Of a DNA stretch of 35,297 nucleotides, positions 3,098-19,926 are shown one piece after another. Below the pieces are notes generated by a model. The model saw nothing but the letters and a program-made list of their open reading frames with translations, was not told the origin of the DNA and searched no databases. A program made the position numbers and the translations under genes. Each line of letters begins with the position of its first letter. Position 1 is the first letter of the stretch. The stretch comes from Silvanigrellaceae bacterium (GTDB lineage: Bacteria > Bdellovibrionota_B > Oligoflexia > Silvanigrellales > Silvanigrellaceae): contig JBMSQQ010000029.1 in NCBI GenBank assembly GCA_049423385.1, forward strand, positions 1 through 35,297, written 5' to 3'.

Positions 3098-3396
3098 AAG
3101 CCTTTGAAAGTTCAGAAATCAGCATTTCCGAGCTCGTCAAAAGAGTGGAAACGGCATTGCAGGGGAGAGACCTTGGAGAGATCACCCGCTTTGCACTCAA
3201 GGGACAGGAATTGAAAGTTGTGTTTTCGAAGTTCGGCACCACCGAGCTCACTTATAAAGTGGAGACCCGATCGGAGGGCTTTCGAGCCGATCTTGTGAAC
3301 GAAAAAGTCGCCCTGACCCACCGCCCCCTCAAGGCAGACATCACGGCCCGCCTTGCAAAAGTCATGGAACGCGAAGGTGCAAAGTGCACTCTTTGA
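3094..3396 (+). CDS. Hypothetical protein, 100 aa
   Basis: ATGA overlap with the upstream gene, GGAGG upstream, and globular-protein-like composition. Confidence 0.75.
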   Translation: MKAFESSEISISELVKRVETALQGRDLGEITRFALKGQELKVVFSKFGTTELTYKVETRSEGFRADLVNEKVALTHRPLKADITARLAKVMEREGAKCTL

Positions 3397-3447
3397 GTGC
3401 TTCATCCAGTTGAACAGCTCGATTCTTGACTGCAGGTAACGATAAAA

Positions 3448-3461
3448 TTGATTTTTATCAA
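3448..3461. promoter_or_regulatory. FNR-type binding site TTGAT-N4-ATCAA upstream of sdhCAB
   Basis: TTGATTTTTATCAA is an exact match to the FNR consensus, in intergenic DNA about 160 bp upstream of sdhC. Confidence 0.6.
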
Positions 3462-3619
3462 ACGTATGCTTGCGCTCATTCGAATCGGATGCCCTCCGGT
3501 GCGGGCACATTAAGAAATCCCCTGAAAGTTCAGTGGAATGGATTGCCGTTCAAAGATGTCTGGTACATCTTTGAAACAATCACTTTGCAGCAGGCACCGT
3601 ATATAAGGAGATCATCCTC

Positions 3620-4306
3620 ATGGGTCCGGGGATCATGAAATATCTGAACAGTTCGATCGGGCGGAAATACGTCATGGCCCTCAGCGGGCTCGTCTGGGTT
3701 CTTTTTGTATTGACCCACATGATTGGAAATCTTTTGATTTTCGTCGGCAAAGACGCCTACAACATGTACAGCCACAAGCTCATCACCAACCCGCTCATCT
3801 ACCTGGCTGAAGCTGCGCTGGTTGTTTTTATTGGTGCGCATGCAGCCACCGGAATTGGCTTGAGGATGCGAAACAATCGCAGCAAACCCAGTCTTTATGC
3901 GGTGACCCCGAAAGGAGTGAAGGGAGCCTCCCTGGCCTCCAAAAGCATGATTTGGTCTGGAACGATCACGCTGGTTTTCCTGGTCCTGCACCTCATCACA
4001 TTCAAATACGGTCAGCACTACACCTACAACAAGGATGGCATCGACGTTGTGGTTGATGGAATCAAGGTGCGCGATATCCATCAATTGGTTCTCGAATGCT
4101 TTGAAAAACCCGGATACGTTGCCTGGTATACCGTTTGTCTCGTTTTGGTTGGACTTCACCTTTACCACGGGGTTTCTTCCAGTTTTCAGACACTGGGACT
4201 CAATCACCCCAAGTTCAACAATGCCATCAAAATGTTCGGCTGGGCTTATGCGATCTTTGTTGCCGCTGGTTTTCTTGCGGTTCCTCTTTATGTCTTTGTA
4301 TTCTGA
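3620..4306 (+). CDS. sdhC: Succinate dehydrogenase/fumarate reductase cytochrome b558 subunit (single anchor, type B)
   Basis: SSIGRKYVMALSG, HMIGNL and HLYHGVSSSFQTLG motifs; five hydrophobic helices; four candidate heme His ligands; AAGGAG RBS. Confidence 0.95.
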   Translation: MGPGIMKYLNSSIGRKYVMALSGLVWVLFVLTHMIGNLLIFVGKDAYNMYSHKLITNPLIYLAEAALVVFIGAHAATGIGLRMRNNRSKPSLYAVTPKGVKGASLASKSMIWSGTITLVFLVLHLITFKYGQHYTYNKDGIDVVVDGIKVRDIHQLVLECFEKPGYVAWYTVCLVLVGLHLYHGVSSSFQTLGLNHPKFNNAIKMFGWAYAIFVAAGFLAVPLYVFVF

Positions 4307-6251: not shown

Positions 6252-7049
6252 ATGGCAGGAAACAACAACTCAGGCACCATGCGCATCAATCTGAAGGTGT
6301 GGCGCCAAAAAAACGCAGACGCACCCGGACAACTTGTCGACTATCCACTTGAGAACATCAGTCCCGACATGTCCTTTCTCGAAATGTTTGACGTGCTCAA
6401 CGAACAGCTTGTCAAAAAAGGCGAGGAACCTGTCGCATTTGCCCACGACTGCCGTGAAGGCATCTGCGGCTCGTGCGCAATGGTGATAGATGGCGAACCT
6501 CACGGACCACAGACGGGAACAACCACTTGTCAGCTTCACATGAGAACATTCAGTGATGGTGACTCGATCGTTGTCGAACCTTTCCGCGCCAAGGCATTCC
6601 CCGTGGTGAAGGATTTGGTCACGAACAGGGGAGCACTGGATCGCATTCAAGCTGCCGGTGGATACGTGACAGTCAGCACCGGGAACGCTCCCGATGGCAA
6701 TGCAATTCCGATTTCAAAAGACATCGCCGACCTGGCCATGGACGCAGCGGCATGCATTCAATGCGGTGCTTGTGTTGCTGCGTGCAGAAATGGTTCGGCC
6801 ATGCTTTTTGTGTCTGCCAAGGTCTCGCAATTGTCCCTGCTTCCCCAGGGACAGGCAGAGCGTGAACGGCGAGTCTCCCGCATGGTGTGGCAAATGGACG
6901 AAGAGGACTTCGGCAGCTGCACAAACATGGGTTCCTGTGCAGCCGCATGTCCAAAAGAAATCAAGGTCGAAAACATTGCCCGCATGAATCGTGAATTTGG
7001 ACGCGCAATGTTGTTTGGCCGCGTGCGGGACCAGGTCGCGGAAGACTGA
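6252..7049 (+). CDS. sdhB: Succinate dehydrogenase/fumarate reductase iron-sulfur subunit
   Basis: Cluster motifs [21 protein letters not shown] and [12 protein letters not shown]. Confidence 0.97.
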
Positions 7050-7129
7050 AGTCGTCCCGCTTTTTACGAGTTGGAGGGAATGCCGCAAAAAATGCGGAGC
7101 ACCCGAATGCAAAGCCGAAGCAGACAGCC

Positions 7130-7169
7130 AAAAAAAAGACCCACGGGAACATTCCGTGGGTCTTTTTTT
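7130..7169. terminator. Bidirectional intrinsic terminator
   Basis: A8-GACCCACGG-gaacatt-CCGTGGGTC-T7, lying between the convergent sdhB and bcp-fusion genes. Confidence 0.92.
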
Positions 7170-7188
7170 GGACTGCGAGACCAAAGAC

Positions 7189-8040
7189 TTAGTCTTGCAG
7201 TTTTTTGAGCGTGGCCAAAACCGATTTGGCGTGGCCATCCACCTTGACCTTGGGCCAGCGTGCAACCACGAGACCCTTTGGATTCAGCAGAAATGTACTG
7301 CGCTCAATTCCCATGAACGTCTTACCGTACATGCTCTTTTCCTTCCAGACTCCAAAACGCTCACACAGATCGCCACCCTCATCAGAGAGCAACATGAAGG
7401 CCAAACCTTCCTTCTGGGCAAACTTGCCATGACTCTGGCAGGAGTCCTTGCTCACTCCAACAACCACCGCATCCTGCAGTTTGAATTGCTGATTGAGAGC
7501 CTGGAAATCTCGGGCTTCGATTGTGCAACCGGGTGTCATGTCTTTCGGGTAGAAATATAAGACAACCCACTTGCCTCTCACGAGACCGTCGCGAAACTCC
7601 TCTCCGCCAACGCGCCCCGAAATCCTTGGAGCGCTATAGGGAGAGGAAAGTAAACCGGATTCGCCGTCGGGCTCGGAGGGCTCTCCGCCTTCGCTGGAAG
7701 TCGCCGATGCAGCAGGAGCTGCCTTGGCTTTGCGAGCGCCAGTTTTGCGAGCTGTCTTCTTGGCAGCAGCCTTCTTGGGAGCAGCTTTCTTCGCAGCAGC
7801 CTTCTTGGGAGCAGCTTTCTTCGCAGCAGCCTTCTTGGGAGCAGCTTTCTTCGCAGTTGCCTTCTTGGCAGTTGTCTTCTTGGCAGTTGCCTTCTTGGCG
7901 ACTGTCTTCTTGGCTGCTGTCTTCTTCTTCGCAGCAGGCTTCTTCTTGGCTACTGCCTTCTTGGCAGCTTTCTTAGGAGCAGCCTTCTTTGCAGCAGGTT
8001 TCTTGGTTGCAGATTTCTTCGCACCTTTCTTCGTAACCAT
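7189..8040 (-). CDS. bcp: Histone H1-like Lys/Ala-repeat domain fused to a BCP/PrxQ peroxiredoxin
   Basis: GGAGG RBS before the ATG at 8040; about 106 aa of xxxKK repeats, an acidic linker, then [18 protein letters not shown] (PxxxTxxC) and GIERSTF. Confidence 0.9.
7763..7856. repeat. 30-bp tandem repeat, three exact copies, within a wider 15-bp-period coding repeat (about 7730-8030)
   Basis: Unit gcagcagccttcttgggagcagctttcttc encodes [10 protein letters not shown] on the minus strand. Confidence 0.9.
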
Positions 8041-8208
8041 ATCTGTGACCTCCATTTTCAGAAAATGTAACTTTGTCTTTTTCATCTGTAAAGACGTCGA
8101 GCACATCTTTTCACTTTTCGAATACGTCAACGTCTCGACTCGCAGATCGCGTCTTGCATTCGGTACAATGTTTGCAAGCACAACTCTAAATTTGAGGCTG
8201 CAACAGAA

Positions 8209-9738
8209 ATGAATCCCGTCTCGGAAAAAATCGCCGCACCTATCTCGATGGAGAAGTTCAGATCGAACTTTCGGCACGACCTCCGCTCGAGCTTTTCCGT
8301 CTTGATTGGATTTGGGGAAGTTTTCAAAGAGGACCTTGCCTCAAGCAACGATTCAGCTGTGTCGATACTTGATTCAATCCTCAGCGAAGCACGTTCGTTG
8401 CTTGATGACACGATGGCAACGATCAATCACTGCTCCATGAATTCTGTTTCCGCCTTCAAGAGTGACGTCAAGGCAGGACTGCGCAAACAGACCATTCCGG
8501 AACTCCGAAAAATCAACGACAAGCTCGTCGAACTCGAAGCCGCACTTGGAAAGCAGGATGCTCTGGTCGGGATGCTGGAAGCCGTTCGGCAATTGTTGCT
8601 CCGTTGCCACTCTCCCTTCGATCAGAAGCTCGACCTGCCAATCCCCTCAAAGATCAAACCTGAAAACATTACGCAGGAGCAGTTGCCAAGCCAGAGCCGA
8701 GGACACGTTCTGGTGCTGGACGACGAACCTCACAACCTTCAACTCATCAGCACCTTCCTGGCACGTATGAATCTGACTTCAGCGACCTTCACTGACGGCC
8801 GTGATGCTCTTCGCGCTCTGGATATTGAAAAATTTGACCTGATACTGCTCGACCTGCATATGCCAAAGATGAGCGGGCTCCAGGTCTTGAAGGAAATCAA
8901 GAAAAATCCAAAAGTCGACTCGATTCCGGTTCTCGTTGTCACCGCATCGGACGATGCGGACGAATTGGCAGAGTGCATCGAGTCCGGTGCCGTGGATTCG
9001 CTCACAAAACCGTTTCAATCAGCTTTCCTGAAAGCCCGTGTTCTCACATCACTCACGCTGCAGGAGGCAAAAAGACGCGAACAGGAGTACGCAGAGGAGT
9101 TGAGATTTCAAAAAAACCGCATCGAGGAGCTGCTTGCCGTCATCCTGCCAAAGGAAATCATCGATGAGCTTCAGGCGACGGGTGAAGTGCAACCGAAGCG
9201 GCACGATCACGTTTGCGTCCTGTTCTGCGACATTGTCAATTTCACCCGGAGCTGCGATACACTGCCACCCGAAGTTATCCTTTCCCAACTCCAAAGCTTG
9301 TTCTCGGAATTTGAGGTGATTGTCGAACTGCACGGGTTGCAGAAGATCAAGACAATCGGAGACAGCTTCATGGCTGTTGTGGGACTGTCAAACGACTCCC
9401 CGGAGCCTGAACGTCTCGCCGCCCGGGCTGGCCTCGATTTGATTGCCAGTGCTGAAGCTCACAACTCAGGCTGGCAAGTTCGGGTTGGTATCCATTCGGG
9501 TCCTGTCGTCAGCGGACTGGTCGGGTCGAAACAATTCCTCTTCGATATCTGGGGTGACACTGTGAACACCGCCGCGCGAATCGAAGGAGCAGGACGCCCC
9601 CAATTACTCACATCATCAAAATCAACGTTCGAGCGGCTGGGAGCGGATGCCAGGGGATACAGCCTGGGCCTCATCAACCTCAAAGGCAAAGGCGAGCAGG
9701 AAATCTTTGTCATCGAAGAAATTCTGAACAGGAAATAA
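8209..9738 (+). CDS. Class III adenylate cyclase with N-terminal HisKA-like and receiver domains
   Basis: H-box-like [19 protein letters not shown] motifs VLDDE, LLDLHMP and TKP; cyclase motifs [15 protein letters not shown] and [15 protein letters not shown], whose K/D pair indicates ATP specificity. Confidence 0.92.
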
Positions 9739-9800: not shown

Positions 9801-10121
9801 TTACTTTTTCTTCTTGGCAGCACGCTTCACGCCAACAGCGTCCTTGAGGGACTTGGCAGCGCGGAATGTCACTTTCTTGGAAGCAGGAATGCGGATTTCT
9901 TCGCCGGTCTGTGGGTTGCGGCCCATGCGAGCAGCACGTTCCTTGACCTGGAGAATACCGACCTTGTCGATACGGACTTTGGAATGATTGCCAACAACTT
10001 CCTGCTCGATGAGAGTCAGGAACTCCTGGAGGACTTCCTTGGTCACCTTCTTTGGAAGTTCAGTGTGGTTGGCAGCAACAGTCGAAATCAGCTGTGATGT
10101 CGAAACGGTCGACTTTTTCAT
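9801..10121 (-). CDS. hup: HU/IHF-family DNA-binding protein
   Basis: RAARMGRNPQTGEEIRIPASKKVTFRAAKSLKDAV signature; AAGGAG RBS before the ATG at 10121; basic tail KRAAKKKK. Confidence 0.93.
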   Translation of the reverse strand: MKKSTVSTSQLISTVAANHTELPKKVTKEVLQEFLTLIEQEVVGNHSKVRIDKVGILQVKERAARMGRNPQTGEEIRIPASKKVTFRAAKSLKDAVGVKRAAKKKK

Positions 10122-10167
10122 AACACGCTCCTTGTGATGAACCGTTTGCAGATGCGATTTACACAGG

Positions 10168-10196
10168 AGATTAGCGACCCTGGCGAAAACTGTCAA
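10168..10196 (-). promoter_or_regulatory. Sigma70-type promoter for the HU gene
   Basis: TTGACA, a 17-bp spacer, then TAATCT on the minus strand, about 47 bp upstream of the HU start. Confidence 0.65.
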
Positions 10197-10197
10197 A

Positions 10198-11574
10198 TCA
10201 TGCGTTGAGTTTGGGCCCGCGAGCCGTGTGCGGGGACACCATCGGACTCAAGTTTCCCTTGCTGCGCGCCTCGATCTCGATCATCGACTCAAACAGTTTT
10301 TTGGAGACATTTATGGTCTCGGATCGAAGCCCGCAAAAGGTAAACATCTCGCTTGAAGCAACCCAGCGGATCTCTCCTTTGAGGAGAAGGTTCTGCGACT
10401 TGTTCTCCGGTTCGGAAACCGCTGATGCTTCCATTCCCGACATTGATTTGCGGGTCCGCTCTGCCAAGGGGCCAAGGGTCGTCGACTTGATTCCCTTGGT
10501 TGGTGCAGTCTCGTTTTTTTGTGAAAGTGCCACGGCCAACTCCTTGGCCCGGGTCTTTTGCCATTTGTCGAGCGCATCCACTCCCGCCTCGATCAGGTTG
10601 GATGGAGGAACGTGCAACTGAAGAATTTGTCCCTCATTCATATTCACAAGAGCAGAACCACCCTTGCCTTTGCCTGCAATGTTGAATGTCAAATCATGAT
10701 TGCTGATTCTGATTTTTGCCCCACCCAGGCTCACATCGTCGATTGTGACGGGAATGATTTTGCGCACAGGCTCCTGTGGAACCAACTTCTCGGTCATCAC
10801 GGGATTCGCAGGCTTCTTTTCTGTTGACTTGATCGCACCCTTGCCTGTCGGAGCGGTCGGCTTTTTGCCCACAGCAACGGCCATCTTTGTTTTACCCACC
10901 AGTGTTGTCCGGGCAGGCACCTGTTTGGTGGAAGACGCTTTTTTGCTGGTTTGCGCCGGTTCGGTTTTGCCTGCTGGTTTCGCCGCCGTCTTCTTCGTTT
11001 TTACGGGATTTGCTTTTGCGGTTGGCTTGGTTTTGCCAGCAGACTTGCTCTTTGCCTTTGGCTTGGCCTTTGCCTTGGCAACCTGAAGTGTCTTTGTTGT
11101 GGCCATTTTTCCTGTCACTGCCGCCATCAGGGTTGGTTTGTATTCCACTTCCAAAAACGCAGGAAGAGCACAACTCAAACGCCGCTGACAGCGATGCTTT
11201 CCTTCAATGAACCTCTGCGCAAGTGAAACAACAAGTTCGGGCTTCACTGGCTTTTTGAGCCAGCTCAAGCAGTCATCAAAAGCAGACAAGTCGCGATCAA
11301 TCGACTCCTGAACATCCGGACGATCAAATGCGGTGATGAGAATTGGTTGTGTAAACATCTTCTTGAGACGGGCTGCCGTATACGCACCATCGCGATCAGG
11401 AAGATCATAGTCGATAATGAAAGCATCAAGCTCGCCGTTCGCTTTGGCCAATTCAAGCGCATCGGCAGAGGTTCTTGCGACAACGACCTGCACACCGGGA
11501 AAGTGGTCCTTGAAGACTTCGCTTGTCATCACCAGACTGGCTTTGCTCGCATCAGCAATCAAAATGCGCTTCAT
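10198..11574 (-). CDS. Response regulator: REC domain plus a PilZ-like domain interrupted by Lys/Ala/Thr/Pro-rich inserts
   Basis: REC motifs ILIAD, IIDYDLPD, ITA and KKPV; PilZ motifs RCQRR (RxxxR) and DVSLGG (DxSxxG); GEIRW..CGL C-terminal strands; GGGAG RBS before 11574. Confidence 0.8.
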   Translation of the reverse strand: MKRILIADASKASLVMTSEVFKDHFPGVQVVVARTSADALELAKANGELDAFIIDYDLPDRDGAYTAARLKKMFTQPILITAFDRPDVQESIDRDLSAFDDCLSWLKKPVKPELVVSLAQRFIEGKHRCQRRLSCALPAFLEVEYKPTLMAAVTGKMATTKTLQVAKAKAKPKAKSKSAGKTKPTAKANPVKTKKTAAKPAGKTEPAQTSKKASSTKQVPARTTLVGKTKMAVAVGKKPTAPTGKGAIKSTEKKPANPVMTEKLVPQEPVRKIIPVTIDDVSLGGAKIRISNHDLTFNIAGKGKGGSALVNMNEGQILQLHVPPSNLIEAGVDALDKWQKTRAKELAVALSQKNETAPTKGIKSTTLGPLAERTRKSMSGMEASAVSEPENKSQNLLLKGEIRWVASSEMFTFCGLRSETINVSKKLFESMIEIEARSKGNLSPMVSPHTARGPKLNA

Positions 11575-11625
11575 TCTGCTCTCCCTTGCGTGATTCAAAA
11601 TTCCTCGGCTGCTCTGTTGCGTTTC

Positions 11626-12264
11626 TTATTTCTTCTCTTGGACGGATGGATTCGCTGGCGCGGGAGCCGGGGAAGCAGCAGGATCGGCCGCGTTTGCCTC
11701 CTCAGCATAAGGATCAACAACAGGCGAATCGACAGTCACACCTTGAGTGGAAATGCCTTCAAGTGGCAAACCAACATCCCAGTTGTATTCGGTATCGAGA
11801 GGCTTGATGGAAGCAATCGCCCATTGTCCATGCGTATACTTCATGGTCGCAAGGCTCCTGACTTCTTGCAGGGGAGCGCGCTCCTTTTGTTCACCTACCG
11901 ACCAGCTCTTGAACTTCAATCTGTACTCAATCTGAATCTCGCGACCAGGTTCGATTTCATTTGTCGAAAGAGACTCGAAAACGGCAAAATCATAACGGCG
12001 ATCAAGGTAGGCCTTTTTGAAGGCTTCTGGAGTGGACGATGTCAGGTTGTCTCGGAATTCGCCGGTGGTCAGATTCTCGAGCTCTTCACGTTGCTCCATC
12101 CGGGTGATGTTGAGCGCGAGATCAATATAGCTGCGCAATTGTTGTTCCGGAGGAACATCAACGCGTGAACTGCAGCGCACGGGTCCGCATCCGAGAAACA
12201 GAAACAAACCAACACTCAACACAATCCAGCGACGGGCAATGGCAAAACAGGCGCTCCGTGACAT
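11626..12264 (-). CDS. Putative lipoprotein (possibly NTF2-like fold)
   Basis: Signal peptide with lipobox-like FLGC; GGAG RBS before the ATG at 12264; Pro/Ala-rich tail. Confidence 0.65.
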   Translation of the reverse strand: MSRSACFAIARRWIVLSVGLFLFLGCGPVRCSSRVDVPPEQQLRSYIDLALNITRMEQREELENLTTGEFRDNLTSSTPEAFKKAYLDRRYDFAVFESLSTNEIEPGREIQIEYRLKFKSWSVGEQKERAPLQEVRSLATMKYTHGQWAIASIKPLDTEYNWDVGLPLEGISTQGVTVDSPVVDPYAEEANAADPAASPAPAPANPSVQEKK

Positions 12265-12326
12265 GCAAATCTCCAGCAAAGAGAGCTTCATGGCTCAAGT
12301 TTAGCAAAGGGTCGTGAGTTGGGGGT

Positions 12327-12860
12327 TCATCGTGATGTCGCAGGTTTGGCGGATTGAGCAGCCTGTGCCCACCGACAAACCTCGTCTGCTGTCCAACGTG
12401 AAGCCTCAATCTCGATGGCGTTGTTTTGAAATTCAGACAAACCGGCATCAATCGACCATGCCTTTTGGTCTATTGCGACCAACGACGGCTCGTTGATTTT
12501 GAGCGGTTTCAATGAAGTTTCGGAGACCGACACTCCCAATATCCGCAATTCTCCCGCCAGGCGTTCCAGGCGACCATTCTGCTTTTCGGACAGGGGCTCA
12601 AGACGCAGTGCCGTGAGCAGACCACGCTGCGCTGCACCATGAAGAAAACTTGCCAGTTGTCGATCTTCGAAGGTTTGACTCAAAACGCAAATTCTGGATT
12701 TTGCATTCAAGAATTGGTCCGCCAGGGCATCACGAAAAACCCGCCAGGATGGAAAAACAACCCCTTCAGCCCTGAAAACCGATTGTGCAGATTTTGGAAC
12801 TGAATCAGGACTTGCGCTTGCGGAGCACAACGGCATAAAAGCCATCGAGATCATCAGCAT
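12327..12860 (-). CDS. Phospholipase D/Nuc-like fold protein lacking the HKD motif; start uncertain
   Basis: NAKSRICVLSQTFEDRQLASFLHGAAQRG resembles the PLDc_2 N-terminal pattern; fills the gap between rsmB and the lipoprotein gene. Confidence 0.55.
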   Translation of the reverse strand: MLMISMAFMPLCSASASPDSVPKSAQSVFRAEGVVFPSWRVFRDALADQFLNAKSRICVLSQTFEDRQLASFLHGAAQRGLLTALRLEPLSEKQNGRLERLAGELRILGVSVSETSLKPLKINEPSLVAIDQKAWSIDAGLSEFQNNAIEIEASRWTADEVCRWAQAAQSAKPATSR

Positions 12861-14181
12861 TGCCCGGAAGGATGAGCAGCTCATTCCCACGCGTGACGTA
12901 TTTCCTGTAATAGTCATGCACCCGCCGATCCAACGGAACAATTTCGAACTCTTTGTGCCGTTCAAGAAAATCGGACATTTGAAAGGTCGTTTCTTCCTGC
13001 TCGATACTGCATACAATATATACGAGCTCGCCACCGGGCCGCACGGCAACCGCCAGCCCGTCAAGCAATCGACGCTGTTCCTGGGCGCAATGTTCAATAT
13101 CTTGGGGAACCCGCTGCCATTTGCTTTCGGGGTGTCTGCGAACAACTCCCAAAGCCGAACAAGGAGCATCCAACAAAATAGTGTCAAACTGGCGTTCCCC
13201 CAGTTGAGCAAGGACGTCACCCTGCAAAATCTCAGCGGGCTCAACTCCCAACCTTTCCAGATTCTGCCTGAGGAGGGACATCCTTTTTTGACTGCTTTCG
13301 GCAAGCACGAGGTCACGTGCGTCGACACCCTGATCCCACAAAGCCAATGACTTTCCTCCCGGCGCTGAACAGGCGTCGAGTACACGACCGCACTCGGCCC
13401 CCGGGCGGACAAGGCCGACCGCAAGCTGTGCAGCAACATCCTGAACGATATAACAACCGTTCAAAAAAGCCTCGCATCGGCTGAAATCGGGAAGACGTTC
13501 AACCCTCAGCGCAGACTTCAGCGGCAACCACTCACTCTGAATCCCTTGGGTGCGCAATAGATAAGCCGCCAGATCTTCCTCTGTGGGAAGGGGTTTTCTG
13601 GAAATTTTTCGCAAGGTGATGGGTGGTGCCTTGTTATTGTCGGAAAGAAAATGCTCAAGCCTGTCGACAGCAATATGCCGCATCCAGCGCTCGACCATCC
13701 ATTGCGGATGGGCAAATTGAACCGAAAGGTAATTCACCGTGTCGGTTTCACGATCCGGTTTCGGATAATATTCCGCCTTTCGAGCCACCCGCCGTAAAAT
13801 TGCATTTACAAACGATGCCGCGTTGCCTGCCCCAACCTTTTTGATCGCCTCAACCGTTTCGGAAACTGCAGCGCGGTCGGGAACCCGATCCATATAAAAA
13901 ATCTGGTATGCACCAATGCGCAGAGCACATGCCACCCGAGGATCGAGACTTGCGAAAGGACGATCGACCATGTGCGACATGATCCAGTCCATCTTCGACA
14001 ACCAACGCAATGAGCCATAGACAATTTCAAAAATGAAGGCGCGATCGAGCGGACGCAATTCTGCGGCGTGATGCGAAAAGAGTTTCTCCAAGGCGGCGTC
14101 CGCATGTTGGCGACGTGTCAACACATGATTCAGTGCATCAATTGCAATAGCTCGAGACAAAGTCCCAATTCTCGTGGACAT
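12805..14181 (-). CDS. rsmB: 16S rRNA m5C967 methyltransferase
   Basis: NusB-like N-terminus (FVNAILRR), VQD, LDACSAPGGKS, LDAPCS and VCS motifs; GGAGG RBS before 14181. Confidence 0.95.
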   Translation of the reverse strand: MSTRIGTLSRAIAIDALNHVLTRRQHADAALEKLFSHHAAELRPLDRAFIFEIVYGSLRWLSKMDWIMSHMVDRPFASLDPRVACALRIGAYQIFYMDRVPDRAAVSETVEAIKKVGAGNAASFVNAILRRVARKAEYYPKPDRETDTVNYLSVQFAHPQWMVERWMRHIAVDRLEHFLSDNNKAPPITLRKISRKPLPTEEDLAAYLLRTQGIQSEWLPLKSALRVERLPDFSRCEAFLNGCYIVQDVAAQLAVGLVRPGAECGRVLDACSAPGGKSLALWDQGVDARDLVLAESSQKRMSLLRQNLERLGVEPAEILQGDVLAQLGERQFDTILLDAPCSALGVVRRHPESKWQRVPQDIEHCAQEQRRLLDGLAVAVRPGGELVYIVCSIEQEETTFQMSDFLERHKEFEIVPLDRRVHDYYRKYVTRGNELLILPGNADDLDGFYAVVLRKRKS

Positions 14182-14254: not shown

Positions 14255-15523
14255 TCAAATCTGACTGGCCAGACGTCCATCAGCGGGCAATTCGGGACCT
14301 GAACCCCAAGGAGCAAGGCTATCCCAGCGCCCACATGAACCACATTTCCATTGAAAATGCCGCTGCATTGCCGAGCACCCCTGGCAAAAGAAGAATGTTT
14401 CACGCCGGACAGTCTTCAGTTGCACAGCCAGAAGCTGGGCCAAGGCCGCCAGCCAACGGGTTTCTCCCGCCATATTTTTCCGAAGCAAGGTCATCACATC
14501 GAAGAACAGAGCCACGTCCCTGCGAAAAACTTCGTCGTTCGCGTAAGTCCCGAAGTCGATTTGATTGAGGAGTTCAATTTTCAGCCGAGTCAGCACCTGC
14601 TCAACTTCAGCATCATTTCTGTCGAAAAAATCAGCCCAGGCACCCAACAGGGAAAACGCGAAAAAAGGAGCGCGGTTTGAGTGGGATCGACCCAGTCGCA
14701 GGAGCTCCGCGAGGTCAACGAAAAAGCCCAACACGTCTTGGTCGAGAGGACGGGTCGGATCGGGTTGACTCAAGATGCTGGTGGCTTCAATCAGGATCAA
14801 CTTCGCTTCCAATGTTGACGGACTCCAACGCACCGCCTGCTTTGCAAGACTTGCTGCTTCACGCTGGCTTCCACGCAGCAGCACATGCCGCGCAGCAGAG
14901 CTGATAAAATGAGTCACCTCGCGCGCCAATTCGCCGGACTTCGGACCCGAATACGTCTCGAGAACATCCATCAGCAATTTGTGATCGGGGTTGGCATGAC
15001 AGGCGGACAGCAAGAATTTGAAAATTTCGGGCTGGGCAGGTTTGCGATGCAACAACTCCAATCCTGTTTCAATCGCCTTCTCAGAAAGTCCGCTCAGCGC
15101 ATAGACCTGTGTCAGTTCAAACATGGCTTTGTTTGTTTGGGTGCGCGAAACTTTCTCTGAACCCAAAATCTGCAGATAGAGTGCGACAGCCTCCCGGAAT
15201 GAATTCTCCTGAACTGCATATCTGGCCGCCACAAAAACAGAAGCCAAATCGAATTGTGTCGGCTGCAACTCAGGCTCGTGATCGTCCTCAAAAGCAATCA
15301 GGGGATTTTTTGCGGAAAACCTGGCATCTCCTGCCAAACTGCCTCTGTAGACACCATATTTATCAATTTGACGAAAACTGCGACGAAAAGAGCGCCATGC
15401 AGAGGGAAAAAGAAAACCCAACACCAACCCCAGAAAAACCCCGGTGACCAGAAAGAAGACTGCTTCATAGGTATCCCAAAGTGGAAGACCATCGGCAATC
15501 GTATCTGAAACGGGTCTCGGCAC
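14255..15523 (-). CDS. LapB/YciM-like protein (TM helix, TPR-like repeats, C-terminal rubredoxin-type Cys4)
   Basis: N-terminal TM helix, helical repeats and CQGC-x7-WKCGSCGRW; AAGGAG RBS before the GTG; divergent from kdsB. Confidence 0.72.
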   Translation of the reverse strand: MPRPVSDTIADGLPLWDTYEAVFFLVTGVFLGLVLGFLFPSAWRSFRRSFRQIDKYGVYRGSLAGDARFSAKNPLIAFEDDHEPELQPTQFDLASVFVAARYAVQENSFREAVALYLQILGSEKVSRTQTNKAMFELTQVYALSGLSEKAIETGLELLHRKPAQPEIFKFLLSACHANPDHKLLMDVLETYSGPKSGELAREVTHFISSAARHVLLRGSQREAASLAKQAVRWSPSTLEAKLILIEATSILSQPDPTRPLDQDVLGFFVDLAELLRLGRSHSNRAPFFAFSLLGAWADFFDRNDAEVEQVLTRLKIELLNQIDFGTYANDEVFRRDVALFFDVMTLLRKNMAGETRWLAALAQLLAVQLKTVRRETFFFCQGCSAMQRHFQWKCGSCGRWDSLAPWGSGPELPADGRLASQI

Positions 15524-15625: not shown

Positions 15626-16522
15626 ATGACCCACCCAACTCCGAATGCGGGAGCACTCAACAATCCACCGGGCCTCAAATTGGTGATTGCCATACCAGCA
15701 CGACTTGGTTCCACACGGCTTCCACGCAAGCCACTTGCAACATTGGGCGGTAAACCGCTGATTCTTCGGGTCGCAGAGCGGGTTGAAAACTGCATTGGGT
15801 ATCTGTGTGAACAATTACCTTTGGAGCGTTCCGATGTGTTGGCCTTTGTTGCAACCGACAGTGTCGAAATCGAGGCAGCACTTTCTCGATGCAACATCCG
15901 GACCCTGATGACAGCGTCCGAGCTTCCCTCCGGAACCGACCGCATCCTTGCGGCAGCCCAGAGCCTGGAGCCTGCTTTTCGCGAAAGGCTGAAAGGCGAC
16001 ACCTTGTTCATCAATCTGCAGGGTGACGAACCTTTTTTTCATTTTCAGGACATCAAATCTTTGGTTTCGACCATGTTTCAAGACCCACTAGCTCCGATGG
16101 GCACACTTGCATTTGAGCAATCCGATGGACAGCAATTTTTGCGCACTTCTGTTGTGAAAGTCGTTTGCAATTCCGCGGGCGATGCCTTGTATTTCTCGAG
16201 AAGCCCCATACCCTGGCCACGGGAAATTCTAGGAGCGAGTCACTCCGTTTCGATGGCGCAGGATCTGATCAAAAATTCACCTGCCATATCCTTTCGCCAA
16301 CATGTCGGTGTCTATTCATATCGGTACTCCGCGCTCAATGACTTGACCAAAATGAGTCAGAGCAAGCTGGAATTGGCGGAGGGGCTGGAGCAACTCAGAG
16401 CCCTCGAGGCAGGGTGGCGCATCAAGGTTGTCAGTGCGCTTGAAGCTCCCTTCGGAATCGACACACCTGACGACCTGCAACGAGCCGAAGCTTATCTTCG
16501 CAATGAAGGAAGACCCGAATGA
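15626..16522 (+). CDS. kdsB: 3-deoxy-manno-octulosonate cytidylyltransferase (CMP-Kdo synthetase)
   Basis: IPARLGSTRLPRKPL, SGTDR, NLQGDEP, ALYFSRSPIP, EGLEQLRALE and GIDTPDDL. Confidence 0.97.
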   Translation: MTHPTPNAGALNNPPGLKLVIAIPARLGSTRLPRKPLATLGGKPLILRVAERVENCIGYLCEQLPLERSDVLAFVATDSVEIEAALSRCNIRTLMTASELPSGTDRILAAAQSLEPAFRERLKGDTLFINLQGDEPFFHFQDIKSLVSTMFQDPLAPMGTLAFEQSDGQQFLRTSVVKVVCNSAGDALYFSRSPIPWPREILGASHSVSMAQDLIKNSPAISFRQHVGVYSYRYSALNDLTKMSQSKLELAEGLEQLRALEAGWRIKVVSALEAPFGIDTPDDLQRAEAYLRNEGRPE

Positions 16523-19500
16523 TGTTTCCTCGATTTTCAAATCGACGCGCTCAAATTCATATTCTCGCATTGACAACCGCAACAACGGCCATGCTGCATC
16601 GCTCACAAAGTGCAGAAGCCGTGCCAGCCAGCATCCTGTTGCAGTCCAGCAGCACCCAGGCAGATGTCCAATGGGGACGGCTGGAGAACGACAGGTTTGT
16701 TGTCTATTATGACTCCTCGCAGAAAGCTGTCGCAAACCACGCGATGAGAGCGGTTGAACGCGCATATCCGGACATGAGCCTGCTGCTCGGAGCGGTCCTG
16801 AAAGGACAGCCCACTCCACCCGAACTTCCGGAATCTGATGTCCTCACATCAAATTTCAGCAAAATCCCGATCATCGTCAGCTCTCGTTCAGATGGTGCCT
16901 CTTTCGCCAATTTTATTTCCCAGTCACTCGAAATACAGTCGAGCGAATCGCCACCTGCATCCTTGTTTCAGCATGAATTGGCGCATCGGATCATGTATGA
17001 GCACATCGATTTGAATGTGGGTCCCGCCGGAAGAACCTTCATGCTGACGATGTTGCCATCATGGTGGACGGAAGGTCTTCCGGAATACCTGACAGAATCT
17101 GTGGGAAGACTCGAGACCCAAGGCCTGCTGCGGGCCATGGTGCTGAACGATACGTTCCTGAGCTGGGACAGACTGCATGCACTCTACAAAGCTTCCGGCG
17201 ATGTCAGTGCCCGGGGATATGCCTTGTCCGGACGTTTTTTCAAATACTTTCTCGACAAGACACCCGGGCGGAATCTGCGCGAATTGCACAGCAAACTCAT
17301 GTGGAGACAATTGATACCGCCATTTTTCACCGGGTCGTATTTTCTGATTCGCGGCCTGACCGGCAGCTGGCCGGGAGACCTCTACGAATCTTTTAAAAAA
17401 GACCTTAAAAAACAAATTTTGTCCGACCTCGAAGGGATGCCGCGGCTTGAAAAAATCGCAGGTGCCAACAAGGTTTTCGAAAGCCTGAGTCCATTCTCGT
17501 TTGCGAGTTTGGGCAAAACCATCGTTCAAACCGACTTTGCAACAAAAAGCCGGGCAGGCGGGCTCGTCGTTCATCAATTCGCCAACGAAAACAAATTCAA
17601 AAGTACCGGTTCTTATCTGCGTCCACTCAACATTGCGCCAAATGACCGCATCGTTGTGAATCCGAAGGAATGGAGCAACGGTGGTTTCTGGACAAGCCAA
17701 TCCCAGAAGGCAAACAACCGCACGTTCGGCCAGGTGGTTTCCTACTACTCATTCAGGGGACTGCTGGATGAACTTTCTGACGAAAAAATTCTCGGACGCA
17801 TCGATTTTCAACTTGGCAGCGAGGCTGCTCCACCTTCGGTCCAACGGATTGTTTCGATCGCACCGCAAAATGCGGCAGCCCTGACAACCCTCAACACGGA
17901 AACAAAACTTTACCTGCTCAACACGAATCTTCGCCAACACACCCTCCTCGGCAACTGGAGGGCTCCGGACAATGTGAATTTGGTCAGGCCACATCATGCA
18001 CATGCGGAAAGTGAATCCACACTGTGCGCTCATGTGATTGTCAATCGAGACGAGGAGCGCACCTCGCTGGAACGGCTTTGCCATGGCGAATCGCCACAAA
18101 CCATAATCCCGGAAGGGCAATTTTATATCACGGATGCCGTGATGCTTGCACCTGACGACTTTGTCCTGCTCACAGGCTGGAACAGCACACAGGCATTGGT
18201 CCACTGGAACAAGGGAAAAGTCGAGCTGATCAGTGGTTTTGCAGACTTCGTCACCAGCATTGAGCCTGGAGATCAGCCGGAATCCCTGATGTTGCGCGTC
18301 AACACCGGAGGAAACACTCAGCTTTGGCAGACCACACTGAAGGATTTGCGCAAGTCTTACCTCGGATGGATCATTTCGCGGCCCGAAAAATCAAAATGGT
18401 GGAAGGTGCCACAGTACGTGCGCTACGAACCACCTTTTGCCCGCTACGCCAAGGCAATACGCAAAGCCATTGGAACATACAAAGAAGAAAAAGCAGCAAT
18501 ACAACCACCCTTGAAGCCTTTCGCTTCGACAGACAAGAAAATATTGTTGGCCGATGCTGCACCTCCAGAAGCAAAAGAAGATAATGAGTCTGAAGAAATG
18601 GCCGTCCCGAGTGTTGAAGTTCCAGCACCCGAATATCTGCCGAAAATTCCCGAATCCAGTTTGTCCAAAACGGCAATCCAAAAGGTGAACGAGAACCGAA
18701 ATGCAGATGTGCTGGAGGTTCTCGAGGAACCCGATCCTGAAACCAACTCCTCAATCTCGATTCCGGCGCCCTATCGATTTCGCCACTGGATGACCTACCC
18801 GAATGCCCTCCCGCCGTTTTTGGCGGGTGTGTGGACCTTTGGGTTTTTCTCGCGTCCGCTGGTGGATGAAATGGAACGATTTTATCTCCAGCTTTTCGGA
18901 ACGTACTATTACGATCCCGACATCACGCCAACCGATCGTCTTGCACTCGAAATGAACATGGTCGGGAACAGACTTTTCGATGGTTGGAAAGGCAATGTGT
19001 TCATGCGCCCCAGGTTCAATGGACTCACAGGCTGCCGGTTCCCGAATGATCCCAAAGTTTATATTTGCCAATTGTATCTGAGGGAAACAGGAGCAGATCT
19101 TCAACTGAATCGTCGTCTGGATTTGTTCGATTCCACTTCAGACATCCACGCCCGCGTTTTTCAAATTTCACCATCATCGCGCGGTGCTGATCTGGGTCAG
19201 CCGTCGCTCGGAGCTCAAAATGCTTTGCTGGCGAGTGTCGGGGGAACCATGTCCTTCGACACGTGGAGCAAAACCTTGTTCGATGCGCCTGTAGAACAGC
19301 TCGACAAGCGCGATATCGGGCTGGGTGGAACCCTACGGGTGGGTGTGGATTCGACCCACAGCCTTGGAACGGCAAAAGCAGGAAACGGACTCGCCGTCAG
19401 TCCGGTCGGCTTTCAGAACTATTCGCTCGAAATCACCAATAACGCCAACTATCGGAGTCACTCGCTCACGTTGCGGAATTCATATTCATCCACGGGCGGC

Positions 19501-19926
19501 GGAGCTCCCCTCAACGCCAGGGAATTCTTTCGTCCGTTCAAGACCTACATCATCGGAGCAAATGATGGACTTCAGGACATCAGCACTGCCATCGCCGGCA
19601 ATGGCCTGCTCAATTACAGCCTGACCGGCAAGGCGCAATACCGCAACAGCCTCAGCTGGTCGTTTCCGCTCATCAAAAACCTGGATACACGCTTGGCAAT
19701 TGCCTACCTGGAAAAGCTCGATGGCGAGATCGTTTTGAGCCGCGGTGGAACCTCGAATGATTTTTTTCTGAAAAACACCAACAGCATCAGCACAATCACC
19801 GGCTCCATGAGACTGAAGATCGACGTCAAGGGCTACCAGTTGAATCCGTCGATTCTCTATGGGTTTGGCATCGACAAACCCCTGTGGCAACTCTTCACGC
19901 AGATCAAGTTCGACCAGTTCTGGTGA
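16519..19926 (+). CDS. Large exported protein: gluzincin (peptidase MA-like) domain, probable beta-propeller, and C-terminal outer-membrane beta-barrel (Omp85-like)
   Basis: Signal-like N-terminus; HELAH..LPSWWTEGLPEY; beta-rich middle region; acidic/Pro linker; amphipathic strands ending in DQFW. Confidence 0.7.
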   Translation: MMFPRFSNRRAQIHILALTTATTAMLHRSQSAEAVPASILLQSSSTQADVQWGRLENDRFVVYYDSSQKAVANHAMRAVERAYPDMSLLLGAVLKGQPTPPELPESDVLTSNFSKIPIIVSSRSDGASFANFISQSLEIQSSESPPASLFQHELAHRIMYEHIDLNVGPAGRTFMLTMLPSWWTEGLPEYLTESVGRLETQGLLRAMVLNDTFLSWDRLHALYKASGDVSARGYALSGRFFKYFLDKTPGRNLRELHSKLMWRQLIPPFFTGSYFLIRGLTGSWPGDLYESFKKDLKKQILSDLEGMPRLEKIAGANKVFESLSPFSFASLGKTIVQTDFATKSRAGGLVVHQFANENKFKSTGSYLRPLNIAPNDRIVVNPKEWSNGGFWTSQSQKANNRTFGQVVSYYSFRGLLDELSDEKILGRIDFQLGSEAAPPSVQRIVSIAPQNAAALTTLNTETKLYLLNTNLRQHTLLGNWRAPDNVNLVRPHHAHAESESTLCAHVIVNRDEERTSLERLCHGESPQTIIPEGQFYITDAVMLAPDDFVLLTGWNSTQALVHWNKGKVELISGFADFVTSIEPGDQPESLMLRVNTGGNTQLWQTTLKDLRKSYLGWIISRPEKSKWWKVPQYVRYEPPFARYAKAIRKAIGTYKEEKAAIQPPLKPFASTDKKILLADAAPPEAKEDNESEEMAVPSVEVPAPEYLPKIPESSLSKTAIQKVNENRNADVLEVLEEPDPETNSSISIPAPYRFRHWMTYPNALPPFLAGVWTFGFFSRPLVDEMERFYLQLFGTYYYDPDITPTDRLALEMNMVGNRLFDGWKGNVFMRPRFNGLTGCRFPNDPKVYICQLYLRETGADLQLNRRLDLFDSTSDIHARVFQISPSSRGADLGQPSLGAQNALLASVGGTMSFDTWSKTLFDAPVEQLDKRDIGLGGTLRVGVDSTHSLGTAKAGNGLAVSPVGFQNYSLEITNNANYRSHSLTLRNSYSSTGGGAPLNAREFFRPFKTYIIGANDGLQDISTAIAGNGLLNYSLTGKAQYRNSLSWSFPLIKNLDTRLAIAYLEKLDGEIVLSRGGTSNDFFLKNTNSISTITGSMRLKIDVKGYQLNPSILYGFGIDKPLWQLFTQIKFDQFW

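What the first reader, a model, noticed from the sequence alone, without database searches (positions are those of the whole stretch)
7189..8040. Histone H1-like domain fused to a BCP peroxiredoxin: candidate DNA-tethered peroxidase
Seen: after a GGAGG RBS, about 106 aa of xxxKK pentapeptides (about 43 Lys, no acidic residues) and an acidic [11 protein letters not shown] linker run in frame into a BCP domain with an intact PxxxTxxC. I see no internal start before the BCP core, so the enzyme should be made as a fusion. Known: such repeats resemble Chlamydia Hc2, Pseudomonas AlgP and Bordetella BpH1 DNA binders; bacterial BCPs are normally single-domain; yeast Dot5 is a nuclear BCP with a basic extension. 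Inference: the tract targets the peroxidase to the nucleoid (or to polyphosphate) to compact and protect DNA.
Basis: partly seen in the sequence, partly recalled or inferred. Interest (0 to 1): 0.8.

Follow-up and report, generated by a model that had tools for sequence, protein, structure and literature searches.

The report
Peroxiredoxin with histone-H1-like lysine tail
A peroxide-destroying enzyme (Bcp/PrxQ) of an uncultured freshwater bacterium is made with a long, floppy, lysine-rich tail like that of linker histones, which probably holds it on the chromosome, though this has not been tested.

Summary
The gene lies on the minus strand at 7189-8040 and encodes 283 aa. A GGAGG precedes the ATG. 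Residues 1-106 hold 43 Lys and no Asp/Glu. An acidic linker follows, then an intact PrxQ/BCP domain (P165, T169, C172, R247).

It is not an assembly artefact. All 12 other species of the genus carry the same fusion, as do 21 metagenomic protein clusters. Contigs of an RNA library, identical to the window, cross the tail-enzyme junction. AlphaFold2 gives a disordered tail (pLDDT 41-53) on a confident PrxQ fold.

The architecture is not unique. At least 37 of 111 genomes of the phylum with a BCP carry such tails, with at least two origins on the tree. So do 7 of 80 BCP loci from other phyla. This scan reported the same architecture three times before on other DNA. My paper searches found no description of it.

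The best reading is a nucleoid-tethered thiol peroxidase; this role is inferred, not shown. In this genome similar lysine tracts sit on sigma-70, HU, a topoisomerase and two H1-like ORFs. The nearest known analogue is the chromatin-bound Plasmodium PfnPrx. This lineage lacks both canonical resolving cysteines. I class it as a new variant of a known kind, of moderate interest.

The parts
7189..8040 (-). Whole gene: 283-aa H1-like tail plus PrxQ/BCP fusion (stop codon 7189-7191)
   Evidence: Conserved at full length in the genus.
8049..8053 (-). Shine-Dalgarno GGAGG, 8 nt before the ATG
   Evidence: Read from the sequence.
8064..8092 (-). Sigma-70-like promoter match (TTTACA, 17 nt, TACATT; 9 of 12)
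   Evidence: This is a consensus match only, not evidence of function.
7723..8040 (-). Polycationic tract, residues 1-106: xxxKK pentapeptides, 43 K, 0 D/E, pI 12.0, charge about +44.5
   Evidence: Pfam HC2 at 46 bits. Tandem DNA repeat at 7756-8006. pLDDT 41-53 with no secondary structure.
7660..7722 (-). Ala/Ser/Pro stretch plus acidic linker, residues 107-127 ([13 protein letters not shown]), net charge about -5
   Evidence: The motif SEG[GS]EPSEP[DE]G is nearly invariant in 22 of 22 fused clusters.
7192..7659 (-). PrxQ/BCP peroxiredoxin domain, residues 128-283
   Evidence: Pfam AhpC-TSA at E 6.4e-30. X. campestris PrxQ at E 1e-42. pLDDT 82-98. Foldseek TM 0.85-0.90 normalised to PrxQ targets.
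7525..7527 (-). Codon of the peroxidatic cysteine C172
   Evidence: Invariant in the 30-sequence alignment, along with P165, T169 and R247.
7130..7170 (.). Bidirectional intrinsic-terminator hairpin (A-run, 9-bp GC-rich stem, T-run) between sdhB and this gene
   Evidence: Fold of -31.4 kcal/mol on both strands, z -8.3 and -7.2.

Best explanation
This is one monocistronic gene. It makes a cytoplasmic PrxQ/BCP thiol peroxidase with about 125 extra N-terminal residues. These form a disordered Lys/Ala-rich tract of about +45 charge, of the linker-histone (H1 C-terminal domain, Hc2) type, followed by a short conserved acidic linker. Shown: the gene is real, is kept in frame across the genus, lies in RNA-library contigs, and has a complete peroxidatic site on a confident PrxQ fold. 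Inferred: the tail binds the phosphate backbone of chromosomal DNA non-specifically. That would concentrate the peroxidase on the nucleoid, where it removes H2O2 and organic hydroperoxides before Fenton chemistry damages DNA, and it may add to compaction. Both canonical resolving-cysteine positions are absent. The enzyme therefore probably works as a 1-Cys-type PrxQ, recycled directly by a thiol reductant or through another conserved Cys (C201 or C226).
For: Gene and fusion. The ORF, the RBS and the lack of an internal start before codon 154 come. All 12 other species of the genus show a match that includes the tail: 10 at full length and 2 cut by contig ends. 21 further fused protein clusters of 283-343 aa share 68-91% identity. 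Complete tails are 115-153 aa with 42-58 K, and the 22 clusters together hold one acidic residue in their tails. The order sdhB, bcp, response-regulator cyclase is kept in 6 of the 12 orthologous loci of the genus, and at least one of the two neighbours is seen in all 12. Contigs of RNA library X7 with 0 differences tile 7311-7761, across the linker junction, and also 7797-7856 and 7827-7989. A DNA contig of 13,876 nt from another sample covers 6900-7761.

Enzyme. P165, T169, C172 and R247 are invariant in 30 sequences. The best solved relative is X. campestris PrxQ at E 1e-42. AF2 pLDDT is 82-98 for residues 121-283, and Foldseek gives TM 0.85-0.90 to PrxQ structures.

Tail as a DNA binder. 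Pfam HC2 scores above its cutoff. The tail is disordered. Of the 9 frames in the genome with such tracts, 5 are a sigma-70 factor, an HU, a type IA topoisomerase and 2 stand-alone H1-like ORFs. The same kind of S/T-A-A-K-K repeats bind and condense DNA in Streptomyces DdbA. Lysine repeats stabilise the TopA-DNA complex, by the title of a paper cited. PfnPrx joins a Prx domain, an acidic region and a Lys-rich region, and is chromatin-bound genome-wide.

Selection. Tails occur in at least 37 of 111 genomes of the phylum that have a BCP match. They form at least two separate clusters on the BCP tree. They also appear in 7 of 80 BCP loci from other phyla.
Against: No experiment or computation here shows DNA binding or nucleoid localisation. 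A polycationic disordered tract would bind any polyanion, including RNA, ribosomes, polyphosphate and acidic membranes. One of the 9 lysine-tract proteins is a response regulator with no known link to DNA. The HC2 match is driven by composition, and both NCBIfam H1-like models score below their cutoffs (45.7 against 80; 30.1 against 135). The genome also encodes a Dps-like protein, so a DNA-bound antioxidant already exists. RNA-library contigs show presence, not proven transcription. NCBIfam PrxQ and Bcp equivalog scores fall below their cutoffs (141 against 260; 119.5 against 140), and no canonical resolving Cys is present. The catalytic cycle therefore differs from that of the characterised enzymes.
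Confidence: 0.6

Rival explanations
1. The tail tethers the peroxidase to a polyanion other than DNA: RNA or ribosomes, polyphosphate granules, or the acidic inner face of the membrane, where lipid hydroperoxides arise.
For: The tract is pure charge without sequence specificity. PrxQ/BCP enzymes reduce alkyl hydroperoxides, by the titles of the X. campestris entries. One lysine-tract protein of this genome is a response regulator, not a DNA-binding protein.
Against: The named carriers of such tracts in this genome are mostly DNA-bound proteins: sigma-70, HU and a topoisomerase. The studied analogues bind DNA or chromatin.
Confidence: 0.2
2. It is a redox-responsive nucleoid protein rather than a tethered scavenger. 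The 1-Cys-type PrxQ domain senses peroxide. Through sulfenylation or intermolecular disulfides it then changes DNA compaction or passes oxidation to DNA-bound proteins.
For: Both canonical resolving-Cys positions are absent: R177 at CP+5, and A208 opposite X. campestris C84. C201 and C226 are at least 90% conserved. The acidic linker is nearly invariant while the tract around it varies. The tail is as long as the stand-alone H1-like ORFs of the same genome.
Against: Tailed BCPs of families f6 and f9 keep the ordinary CxxxxC pair, so the tail does not require a 1-Cys enzyme. There is no evidence of oligomerisation or of a partner. Single-domain relatives in family f1 also lack the +5 Cys, so that trait is older than the tail.
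Confidence: 0.1
3. The tail is a selectively neutral low-complexity expansion made by replication slippage of a 15-nt repeat, or a generic solubility tag with no targeting role.
For: The DNA is a tandem repeat. Tail length varies from 115 to 153 aa among close relatives. In-frame 3-nt indels occur between samples.
Against: The tail is kept open, lysine-rich and nearly free of acidic residues in 13 species whose BCP domains have diverged to 67% identity. It was gained at least twice in the phylum and again in other phyla. Only 9 frames in the genome carry such tracts, so this is not a genome-wide drift, and genome GC is 51%.
Confidence: 0.07
4. It is an artefact: a misassembly, two genes wrongly joined, or a wrong start, with the real product being a plain BCP.
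For: Short-read assemblies break inside the repeat. A weak promoter-like match lies inside the gene at 7581-7554.
Against: The same architecture appears in 12 independent genomes and 21 protein clusters. Contigs from other samples and from an RNA library cross the junction. There is no in-frame start codon between codons 1 and 154, and starting at codon 154 would delete the first strands of the fold, which begin at residue 130.
Confidence: 0.02

Closest known systems
Xanthomonas campestris PrxQ/BCP (PDB 5iiz, 3gkk, 5iph) and bacterial Bcp in general
   Same: The catalytic domain is homologous: E 1e-42 over residues 153-279 and a fold match with TM 0.85. It has the same PxxxTxxC motif and the conserved Arg.
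   Different: The known enzymes are single-domain proteins of about 160 aa. This one adds 125 N-terminal residues. It has Ala at the position of the X. campestris resolving Cys84 and Arg at CP+5. It scores below the NCBIfam equivalog cutoffs.
Plasmodium falciparum nuclear peroxiredoxin PfnPrx (MCP1), PMC3064226 (passages read)
   Same: One polypeptide holds a peroxiredoxin domain, an acidic region and a lysine-rich region. PfnPrx is chromatin-associated genome-wide, and its authors proposed DNA-backbone binding through the lysine-rich end to place the enzyme next to DNA.
   Different: PfnPrx is eukaryotic and its domain order is reversed (Prx, then Glu-rich, then Lys-rich C-terminus). Its sequence was not compared here. 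The origin is very probably independent. Even for PfnPrx, DNA binding by the tail was not shown in vitro.
Streptomyces DdbA (SCO2075), PMC3643593 (abstract and passages read)
   Same: It has an N-terminal H1-like domain of S/T-A/T-A-K-K pentapeptides fused to a domain with another function. The N-terminal domain binds and condenses DNA in vitro, and the null mutant is sensitive to oxidative stress.
   Different: The partner domain is DksA-like and modulates RNA polymerase; it is not an enzyme that removes peroxide. DdbA has 5 repeats, against roughly 20 here. It is an actinobacterial protein.
Dps (DNA-binding protein from starved cells)
   Same: It is an antioxidant protein held on DNA by a flexible, disordered, lysine-bearing terminal tail (abstracts listed: PMC12642551, PMC13319912).
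   Different: Dps is a ferritin-fold dodecamer with ferroxidase chemistry and much shorter tails. This genome has its own Dps-like gene.
Chlamydia Hc2, Burkholderia and Bordetella H1-like proteins (Pfam PF07382)
   Same: The Lys/Ala-rich repeat composition is the same. The Pfam HC2 match scores above its cutoff.
   Different: Those are stand-alone nucleoid proteins. The NCBIfam models for them score below cutoff here. The similarity is compositional, so homology cannot be claimed.
Yeast Dot5 (nuclear thiol peroxidase; PDB 2a4v)
   Same: It is a PrxQ-type peroxiredoxin that sits beside DNA in the nucleus, by the entry title. The sequence match is E 1e-7 and the fold match is at rank 29.
   Different: It is a distant relative (26% identity in the fold alignment). 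Its basic extension is recalled from memory and was not checked here.

Membership tests
PrxQ/BCP peroxiredoxins | AhpC/TSA thioredoxin-fold domain | tested here: met
   Pfam PF00578 at E 6.4e-30, 104 bits against a cutoff of 26. AF2 pLDDT 82-98. Foldseek TM 0.85-0.90 to PrxQ structures.
PrxQ/BCP peroxiredoxins | PxxxTxxC motif with the peroxidatic Cys, plus the conserved active-site Arg | tested here: met
   P165, T169, C172 and R247 are invariant in the 30-sequence alignment.
PrxQ/BCP peroxiredoxins | Resolving Cys at CP+5 or in helix alpha3 (atypical 2-Cys PrxQ) | tested here: not met
   R177 stands at CP+5. A208 aligns with X. campestris C84; the C84S entry 5iph names that residue. That 1-Cys BCPs are accepted members of the family is recalled from memory.
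PrxQ/BCP peroxiredoxins | Score above the NCBIfam equivalog cutoffs (PrxQ NF053650; Bcp NF006960) | tested here: not met
   141.2 bits against 260, and 119.5 against 140.
PrxQ/BCP peroxiredoxins | Thiol-dependent peroxidase activity | not testable with these tools
   This needs an enzyme assay.
Histone H1-like / Hc2 nucleoid proteins (PF07382) | Profile match above the curated cutoff | tested here: inconclusive
   Pfam HC2 scores 46.0 against 40, which is met. NCBIfam hist_H1_lk_Burk scores 45.7 against 80 and histone_lik_HC2 30.1 against 135, which are not met. The match is compositional.
Histone H1-like / Hc2 nucleoid proteins (PF07382) | Long Lys/Ala-rich repeat tract without acidic residues, intrinsically disordered | tested here: met
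   43 K and 0 D/E in 106 aa. pLDDT 41-53 with no secondary structure.
Histone H1-like / Hc2 nucleoid proteins (PF07382) | Stand-alone small protein | tested here: not met
   Here the tract is fused to an enzyme. Stand-alone H1-like ORFs exist elsewhere in the genome.
Histone H1-like / Hc2 nucleoid proteins (PF07382) | Binds and condenses DNA | not testable with these tools
   This needs EMSA, AFM or localisation experiments.
PfnPrx-like chromatin-associated peroxiredoxin (analogy, not homology) | Prx domain, acidic region and Lys-rich region in one chain | tested here: met
   All three are present here, in reversed order. The PfnPrx layout is taken from the passages.
PfnPrx-like chromatin-associated peroxiredoxin (analogy, not homology) | Genome-wide association with chromatin | not testable with these tools
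   This needs ChIP-seq or imaging.

The most novel reading that the evidence does not exclude
These tailed PrxQ proteins may be a widespread, undescribed class of bacterial redox-sensitive chromatin proteins. The H1-like tail would make them abundant nucleoid components. In this lineage the peroxiredoxin domain lacks a resolving cysteine, so it could turn peroxide exposure into intermolecular disulfides or a thiol relay on DNA. That would condense the nucleoid or switch DNA-bound regulators under oxidative stress. It would be a bacterial counterpart of peroxiredoxin redox relays, placed directly on the chromosome.
Probability: 0.1. Interest if true: 0.8.

Novelty: new variant of a known kind. 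Interest (0 to 1): 0.55.

Why it matters
Peroxide damages DNA mainly through iron bound near the DNA, so where a scavenger sits matters as much as how fast it works. Bacteria are known to hold Dps on DNA. A true peroxidase held on the nucleoid by a histone-like tail would be a second, enzymatic way of protecting the genome locally. It has one studied eukaryotic parallel, PfnPrx. The architecture is common in this phylum, recurs in other phyla including cultured Bradyrhizobium and Nitrobacter, and was not described in the papers searched. A few simple experiments would therefore settle a question that bears on many organisms. It also adds an enzyme to the short list of bacterial proteins that borrowed a linker-histone-type tail (HU/HupB, TopA, DdbA, Ku).

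Tried and rejected
1. Misassembly or two genes. Rejected by relatives and by contigs that cross the junction.

2. Internal start. The first in-frame start is GTG154, inside the fold. The internal promoter-like match at 7581-7554 is a 9-of-12 consensus hit only.

3. The tailed BCP replaces a lost Dps. Rejected. The ferritin/Dps family matches in 37 of 41 related genomes. The own genome has 2 matches, one of them a Dps-like ORF.

4. The tail arose by fusion with a neighbouring H1-like gene. In relatives with single-domain BCPs, the stand-alone H1-like matches lie on other contigs or far away. The sdhB-bcp synteny is specific to the genus. The question remains unresolved.

5. Expression level and transcript ends from public runs. 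Only Logan contigs were available. The lack of RNA-contig cover outside 7257-8072 cannot be used. The very high depth in the repeat bins comes from other organisms' lysine-repeat genes at 90% likeness.

6. Taxon names for tailed metagenomic BCPs. The cluster look-up returned no organism names.

7. ESM Atlas. It returned only AhpC/TSA clusters of 223-244 aa, commonest in Bdellovibrionota, and held no structure model.

8. Stand-alone K-rich ORFs on C13 and C18 and the small ORF on C126. None matched Pfam at E up to 0.001.

9. Literature. 'histone H1-like' + peroxiredoxin + bacteria gave 3 papers, none on such a fusion by title or abstract. BCP/nucleoid/lysine-rich gave nothing relevant. Peroxiredoxin/nucleoid-associated/binds DNA/N-terminal extension gave nothing relevant. 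Silvanigrella + histone gave 2 papers, neither relevant. PrxQ + lysine-rich gave 0 papers.

10. A full census of tailed BCPs across all databases was not possible. The searches list only the best 120 hits. The figures above are lower bounds or samples.

Full report
OBSERVATION. The feature is real, but it lies on the minus strand. The ORF 7189..8040 encodes 283 residues. A GGAGG at 8049-8053 sits 8 nt before the ATG. Residues 1-106 hold 43 Lys, 38 Ala, 10 Thr, 6 Pro and no Asp or Glu. The tract has a computed pI of 12.0 and a charge of about +44.5. The DNA beneath it is a degenerate tandem repeat of period 15, 16.5 copies, at 7756-8006. Residues 107-127 form an Ala/Ser/Pro stretch that ends in the acidic [13 protein letters not shown], with a charge of about -5. 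The rest is a peroxiredoxin. Pfam AhpC-TSA matches at E 6.4e-30, and Pfam HC2 (histone H1-like) matches residues 4-113 at 46.0 bits against a cutoff of 40. The first in-frame ATG, GTG or TTG after codon 1 is GTG154, inside the fold. The plus-strand ORFs 7521..7976 and 7724..8212 are frame shadows of the repeat. A sigma-70-like promoter match lies at 8092-8064. A strong bidirectional hairpin at 7130-7170 separates the gene from the convergent sdhB (-31.4 kcal/mol, z -8.3 and -7.2). The upstream neighbour, a response-regulator adenylate/guanylate cyclase, is divergent. The gene therefore looks monocistronic.

IS IT AN ARTEFACT? No. In a search of 41 related genomes, all 12 other species of the same genus gave a match that includes the tail. 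Ten were full-length, and two were cut by contig ends at query residues 16 and 66. All read as one open frame. A protein search limited to the BCP part returned 21 further fused clusters of 283-343 aa at 68-91% identity. After these came single-domain BCPs of 155-170 aa, among them Fluviispira, Silvanigrella and Pigmentibacter at 56-58% identity. That places the organism in an uncultured genus near Silvanigrellaceae. In the 22 fused clusters, complete tails are 115-153 aa with 42-58 Lys, and the tails hold one acidic residue in total. The linker SEG[GS]EPSEP[DE]G is nearly invariant. The order sdhB, bcp, cyclase is kept in 6 of the 12 other loci of the genus. Every one of the 12 shows at least one of the two neighbours, but no locus outside the genus does.

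Public runs agree. In RNA library X7, contigs with no differences from the window tile 7311-7761. They thus run from the enzyme through the linker into the tract, and they also cover 7797-7856 and 7827-7989. A 13,876-nt DNA contig from another sample covers 6900-7761. Assemblies break inside the repeat, and the three listed indels are each 3 nt. The frame is therefore safe, but the exact repeat count is not. Contigs show presence in an RNA library, not proven transcription.

THE ENZYME. The best solved relatives are X. campestris PrxQ/BCP entries at E about 1e-42 over residues 153-279. In a 30-sequence alignment P165, T169, C172 and R247 are invariant. AlphaFold2 with that alignment gives pLDDT 82-98 for residues 121-283. 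It gives 41-53 with no secondary structure for residues 1-120. The model matches PrxQ structures with TM 0.85-0.90, normalised to the target. Two details depart from the characterised enzymes. The position five residues after the peroxidatic Cys is Arg177. The position aligned with the X. campestris resolving Cys84 is Ala208. Two other cysteines, C201 and C226, are at least 90% conserved. Single-domain relatives of the same family also lack the +5 Cys, so this trait is older than the tail. NCBIfam PrxQ and Bcp equivalog scores fall below their cutoffs. I therefore read the domain as a 1-Cys-type PrxQ, or one with an unconventional resolving Cys. The single-domain relatives begin ..PILEKPYKAP.I.G, which is homologous to [14 protein letters not shown] at residues 128-141. 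The added part is thus residues 1 to about 127, placed in front of an otherwise complete BCP.

HOW COMMON IS IT? A search of all 131 genomes held for the phylum found a BCP match (E up to 1e-18) in 111. I read the best locus in 62 of these genomes. I chose mainly those whose open frame left room for an extension. Of the 62, 37 carry a lysine-rich N-terminal extension, 22 do not, and 3 are unclear (a contig end, stops upstream, or a short weak tract). The 37 break down as follows:
- 13 of 13 read in this genus;
- 0 of 6 read in five other genera of the same family;
- 17 of 19 read in family f6;
- 7 of 9 read in family f9, the other two being among the unclear ones.

The other 49 genomes were not read. 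Their stop-to-stop frames were at most 197 aa, which leaves room only for short tails. The figure is therefore 'at least 37 of 111'. Tail lengths run from about 25 to about 230 residues. The f6 and f9 enzymes keep the ordinary CxxxxC pair.

On a maximum-likelihood tree of the 62 BCP domains, the 13 tailed sequences of this genus form a clade (SH-aLRT 98). That clade lies inside a clade of 20 (support 99) whose other 7 members lack the tail. The f6/f9 tails lie elsewhere on the tree. The tree needs 3-4 changes, and well-supported branches alone force at least 2. The tree is unrooted and my choice of rows was biased towards long frames, so gains cannot be formally told from losses. Different repeat types, linkers and cysteine patterns favour independent gains.

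The tails also occur beyond the phylum. A search with a 349-aa tailed BCP, whose length filter excludes single-domain forms, found 643 BCP proteins of 191-611 aa. Of the 120 listed, 51 have an N-terminal extension of at least 20 aa with at least 20% Lys. A scan of species-representative genomes returned 80 BCP loci from many phyla. Seven have a lysine-rich extension: Bradyrhizobium australiense WSM 1791, a Bradyrhizobium MAG, Nitrobacter sp. TKz-YC01, two alphaproteobacterial MAGs, a Fibrobacteria MAG, and a short one in Ca. Chrysopegis kryptomonas. In that script an extension ran from the farthest upstream in-frame start codon, so those lengths are upper bounds.

This scan has met the same architecture three times before in other genomes, with similar conclusions. 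I reached mine independently and list those notes.

WHAT THE TAIL PROBABLY DOES. Nothing here measures binding, so this part is inference. Four lines of evidence point to DNA.

First, the company it keeps. A scan of the whole 3.47-Mb genome (GC 51%) looked for 40-residue windows with at least 12 Lys and at most 1 acidic residue. It found 9 frames:
- this gene;
- a sigma-70 factor with a basic N-terminal extension of about 400 aa;
- an HU with a basic C-terminal tail;
- a type IA topoisomerase with a basic C-terminal tail;
- two stand-alone H1-like ORFs, one ending in RGRP motifs;
- a response regulator in this window;
- ribosomal protein L35 (named by me from its sequence; no family search was run on it);
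- one small basic ORF.

Pfam confirms the sigma-70, HU and topoisomerase assignments. Five of the nine are DNA-bound proteins or likely nucleoid proteins.

Second, experimentally studied tails of the same kind bind DNA. [quoted passage not shown] By the title of a paper cited in a review I read in passages, the lysine repeats of actinobacterial TopA stabilise the enzyme-DNA complex.

Third, there is a direct eukaryotic parallel. P. falciparum PfnPrx combines a Prx domain, a Glu-rich region and a Lys-rich end. It is bound to chromatin genome-wide, and its authors proposed the same logic of keeping the enzyme next to DNA (passages read).

Fourth, repeated gain and long retention argue for function.

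The points against are these. A polycation binds any polyanion. The HC2 match is compositional, and the NCBIfam H1-like models score below cutoff. The genome already has a Dps-like protein. The other two peroxiredoxins of the genome are a BCP-like protein with a hydrophobic N-terminal leader (likely exported, by my reading of the sequence) and a typical AhpC-like Prx. The tailed protein is thus the only evident cytoplasmic PrxQ.

The nearly invariant acidic linker is unexplained. It may be a spacer that keeps the catalytic domain off the DNA, a processing site, or a partner motif. One relative (G067) even adds a long Asp/Glu C-terminal tail to its basic N-terminal one.

VERDICT. The gene is a real, conserved fusion of a linker-histone-like disordered polycation to a PrxQ/BCP peroxiredoxin. 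The nucleoid-tether reading is the best supported (about 0.6) but is untested. The rivals are tethering to another polyanion (0.2), a redox-responsive nucleoid protein (0.1), neutral expansion (0.07) and artefact (0.02). My paper searches found no description of lysine-tailed bacterial BCPs. Subscription journals and supplements were not searched. I class it as a new variant of a known kind. It is not unique to this window, since it is frequent in the phylum and recurs elsewhere. Its value lies in the general, easily testable idea rather than in this single gene.

Noticed in passing
window 10198-11598 (-): A response regulator (receiver domain at residues 11-104, 28.6 bits, just under the Pfam cutoff of 30.2) has a long Lys/Ala/Thr/Pro-rich middle region (14 K in its best 40-aa window) and a C-terminal part with no Pfam match. 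It is the only lysine-tract protein in the genome without an obvious link to nucleic acids.
   Followed up: partly
window 9801-10196 (-), and G000:C58:19551-19949: There are two HU-family genes. The one in the window ends KRAAKKKK. The paralogue on contig 58 has a longer Lys-rich C-terminal tail.
   Followed up: partly
G000:C2:16789-19446 (L145): The primary-type sigma-70 factor carries about 400 residues of Lys/Ala/Pro/Ser-rich sequence followed by an acidic stretch, all ahead of region 1.2.
   Followed up: partly
G000:C74:6145-8916 (L149): A type IA topoisomerase has Lys-rich stretches in its C-terminal part, reminiscent of the lysine repeats of actinobacterial TopA.
   Followed up: partly
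G000:C13:4941-5348 and G000:C18:41604-42089 (L146, L147): Two stand-alone H1-like ORFs of about 136 and 150 aa. The second ends with two RGRP motifs that look like AT-hooks. Neither matches Pfam at E up to 0.001.
   Followed up: partly
L049 (G067) 769-1986; L046 (G068): BCPs of family f9, genus g36, carry a long Asp/Glu-rich C-terminal tail. In G067 this is combined with a Lys-rich N-terminal tail, giving a protein with oppositely charged ends.
   Followed up: no
L075, L099, L100 (Bradyrhizobium australiense WSM 1791, a Bradyrhizobium MAG, Nitrobacter sp. TKz-YC01): Nitrobacteraceae BCP genes share a basic N-terminal start, MSKK[TI]RKKS, followed by Lys/Ala/Pro/Ser/Thr-rich sequence. These are cultured organisms in which the tail could be tested.
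   Followed up: partly
L050 (G043): The BCP frame runs on upstream for about 200 residues of ordinary, not lysine-rich, sequence that contains an ambiguous base. This may be a fusion or two adjacent genes.
   Followed up: no
window 16519-19926 (+): An ORF of 1135 aa has no Pfam match at E up to 1e-5. ORFs at 3112-3510, 3620-4306, 11626-12291, 12327-13439, 14255-15523 and 32534-33808 also have none.
   Followed up: no
L034 (G061): The BCP match extends into lysine-rich coding sequence upstream, but with 2 TGA and 1 TAA inside. This may be a decayed tail or assembly errors in a fragmented genome.
   Followed up: no
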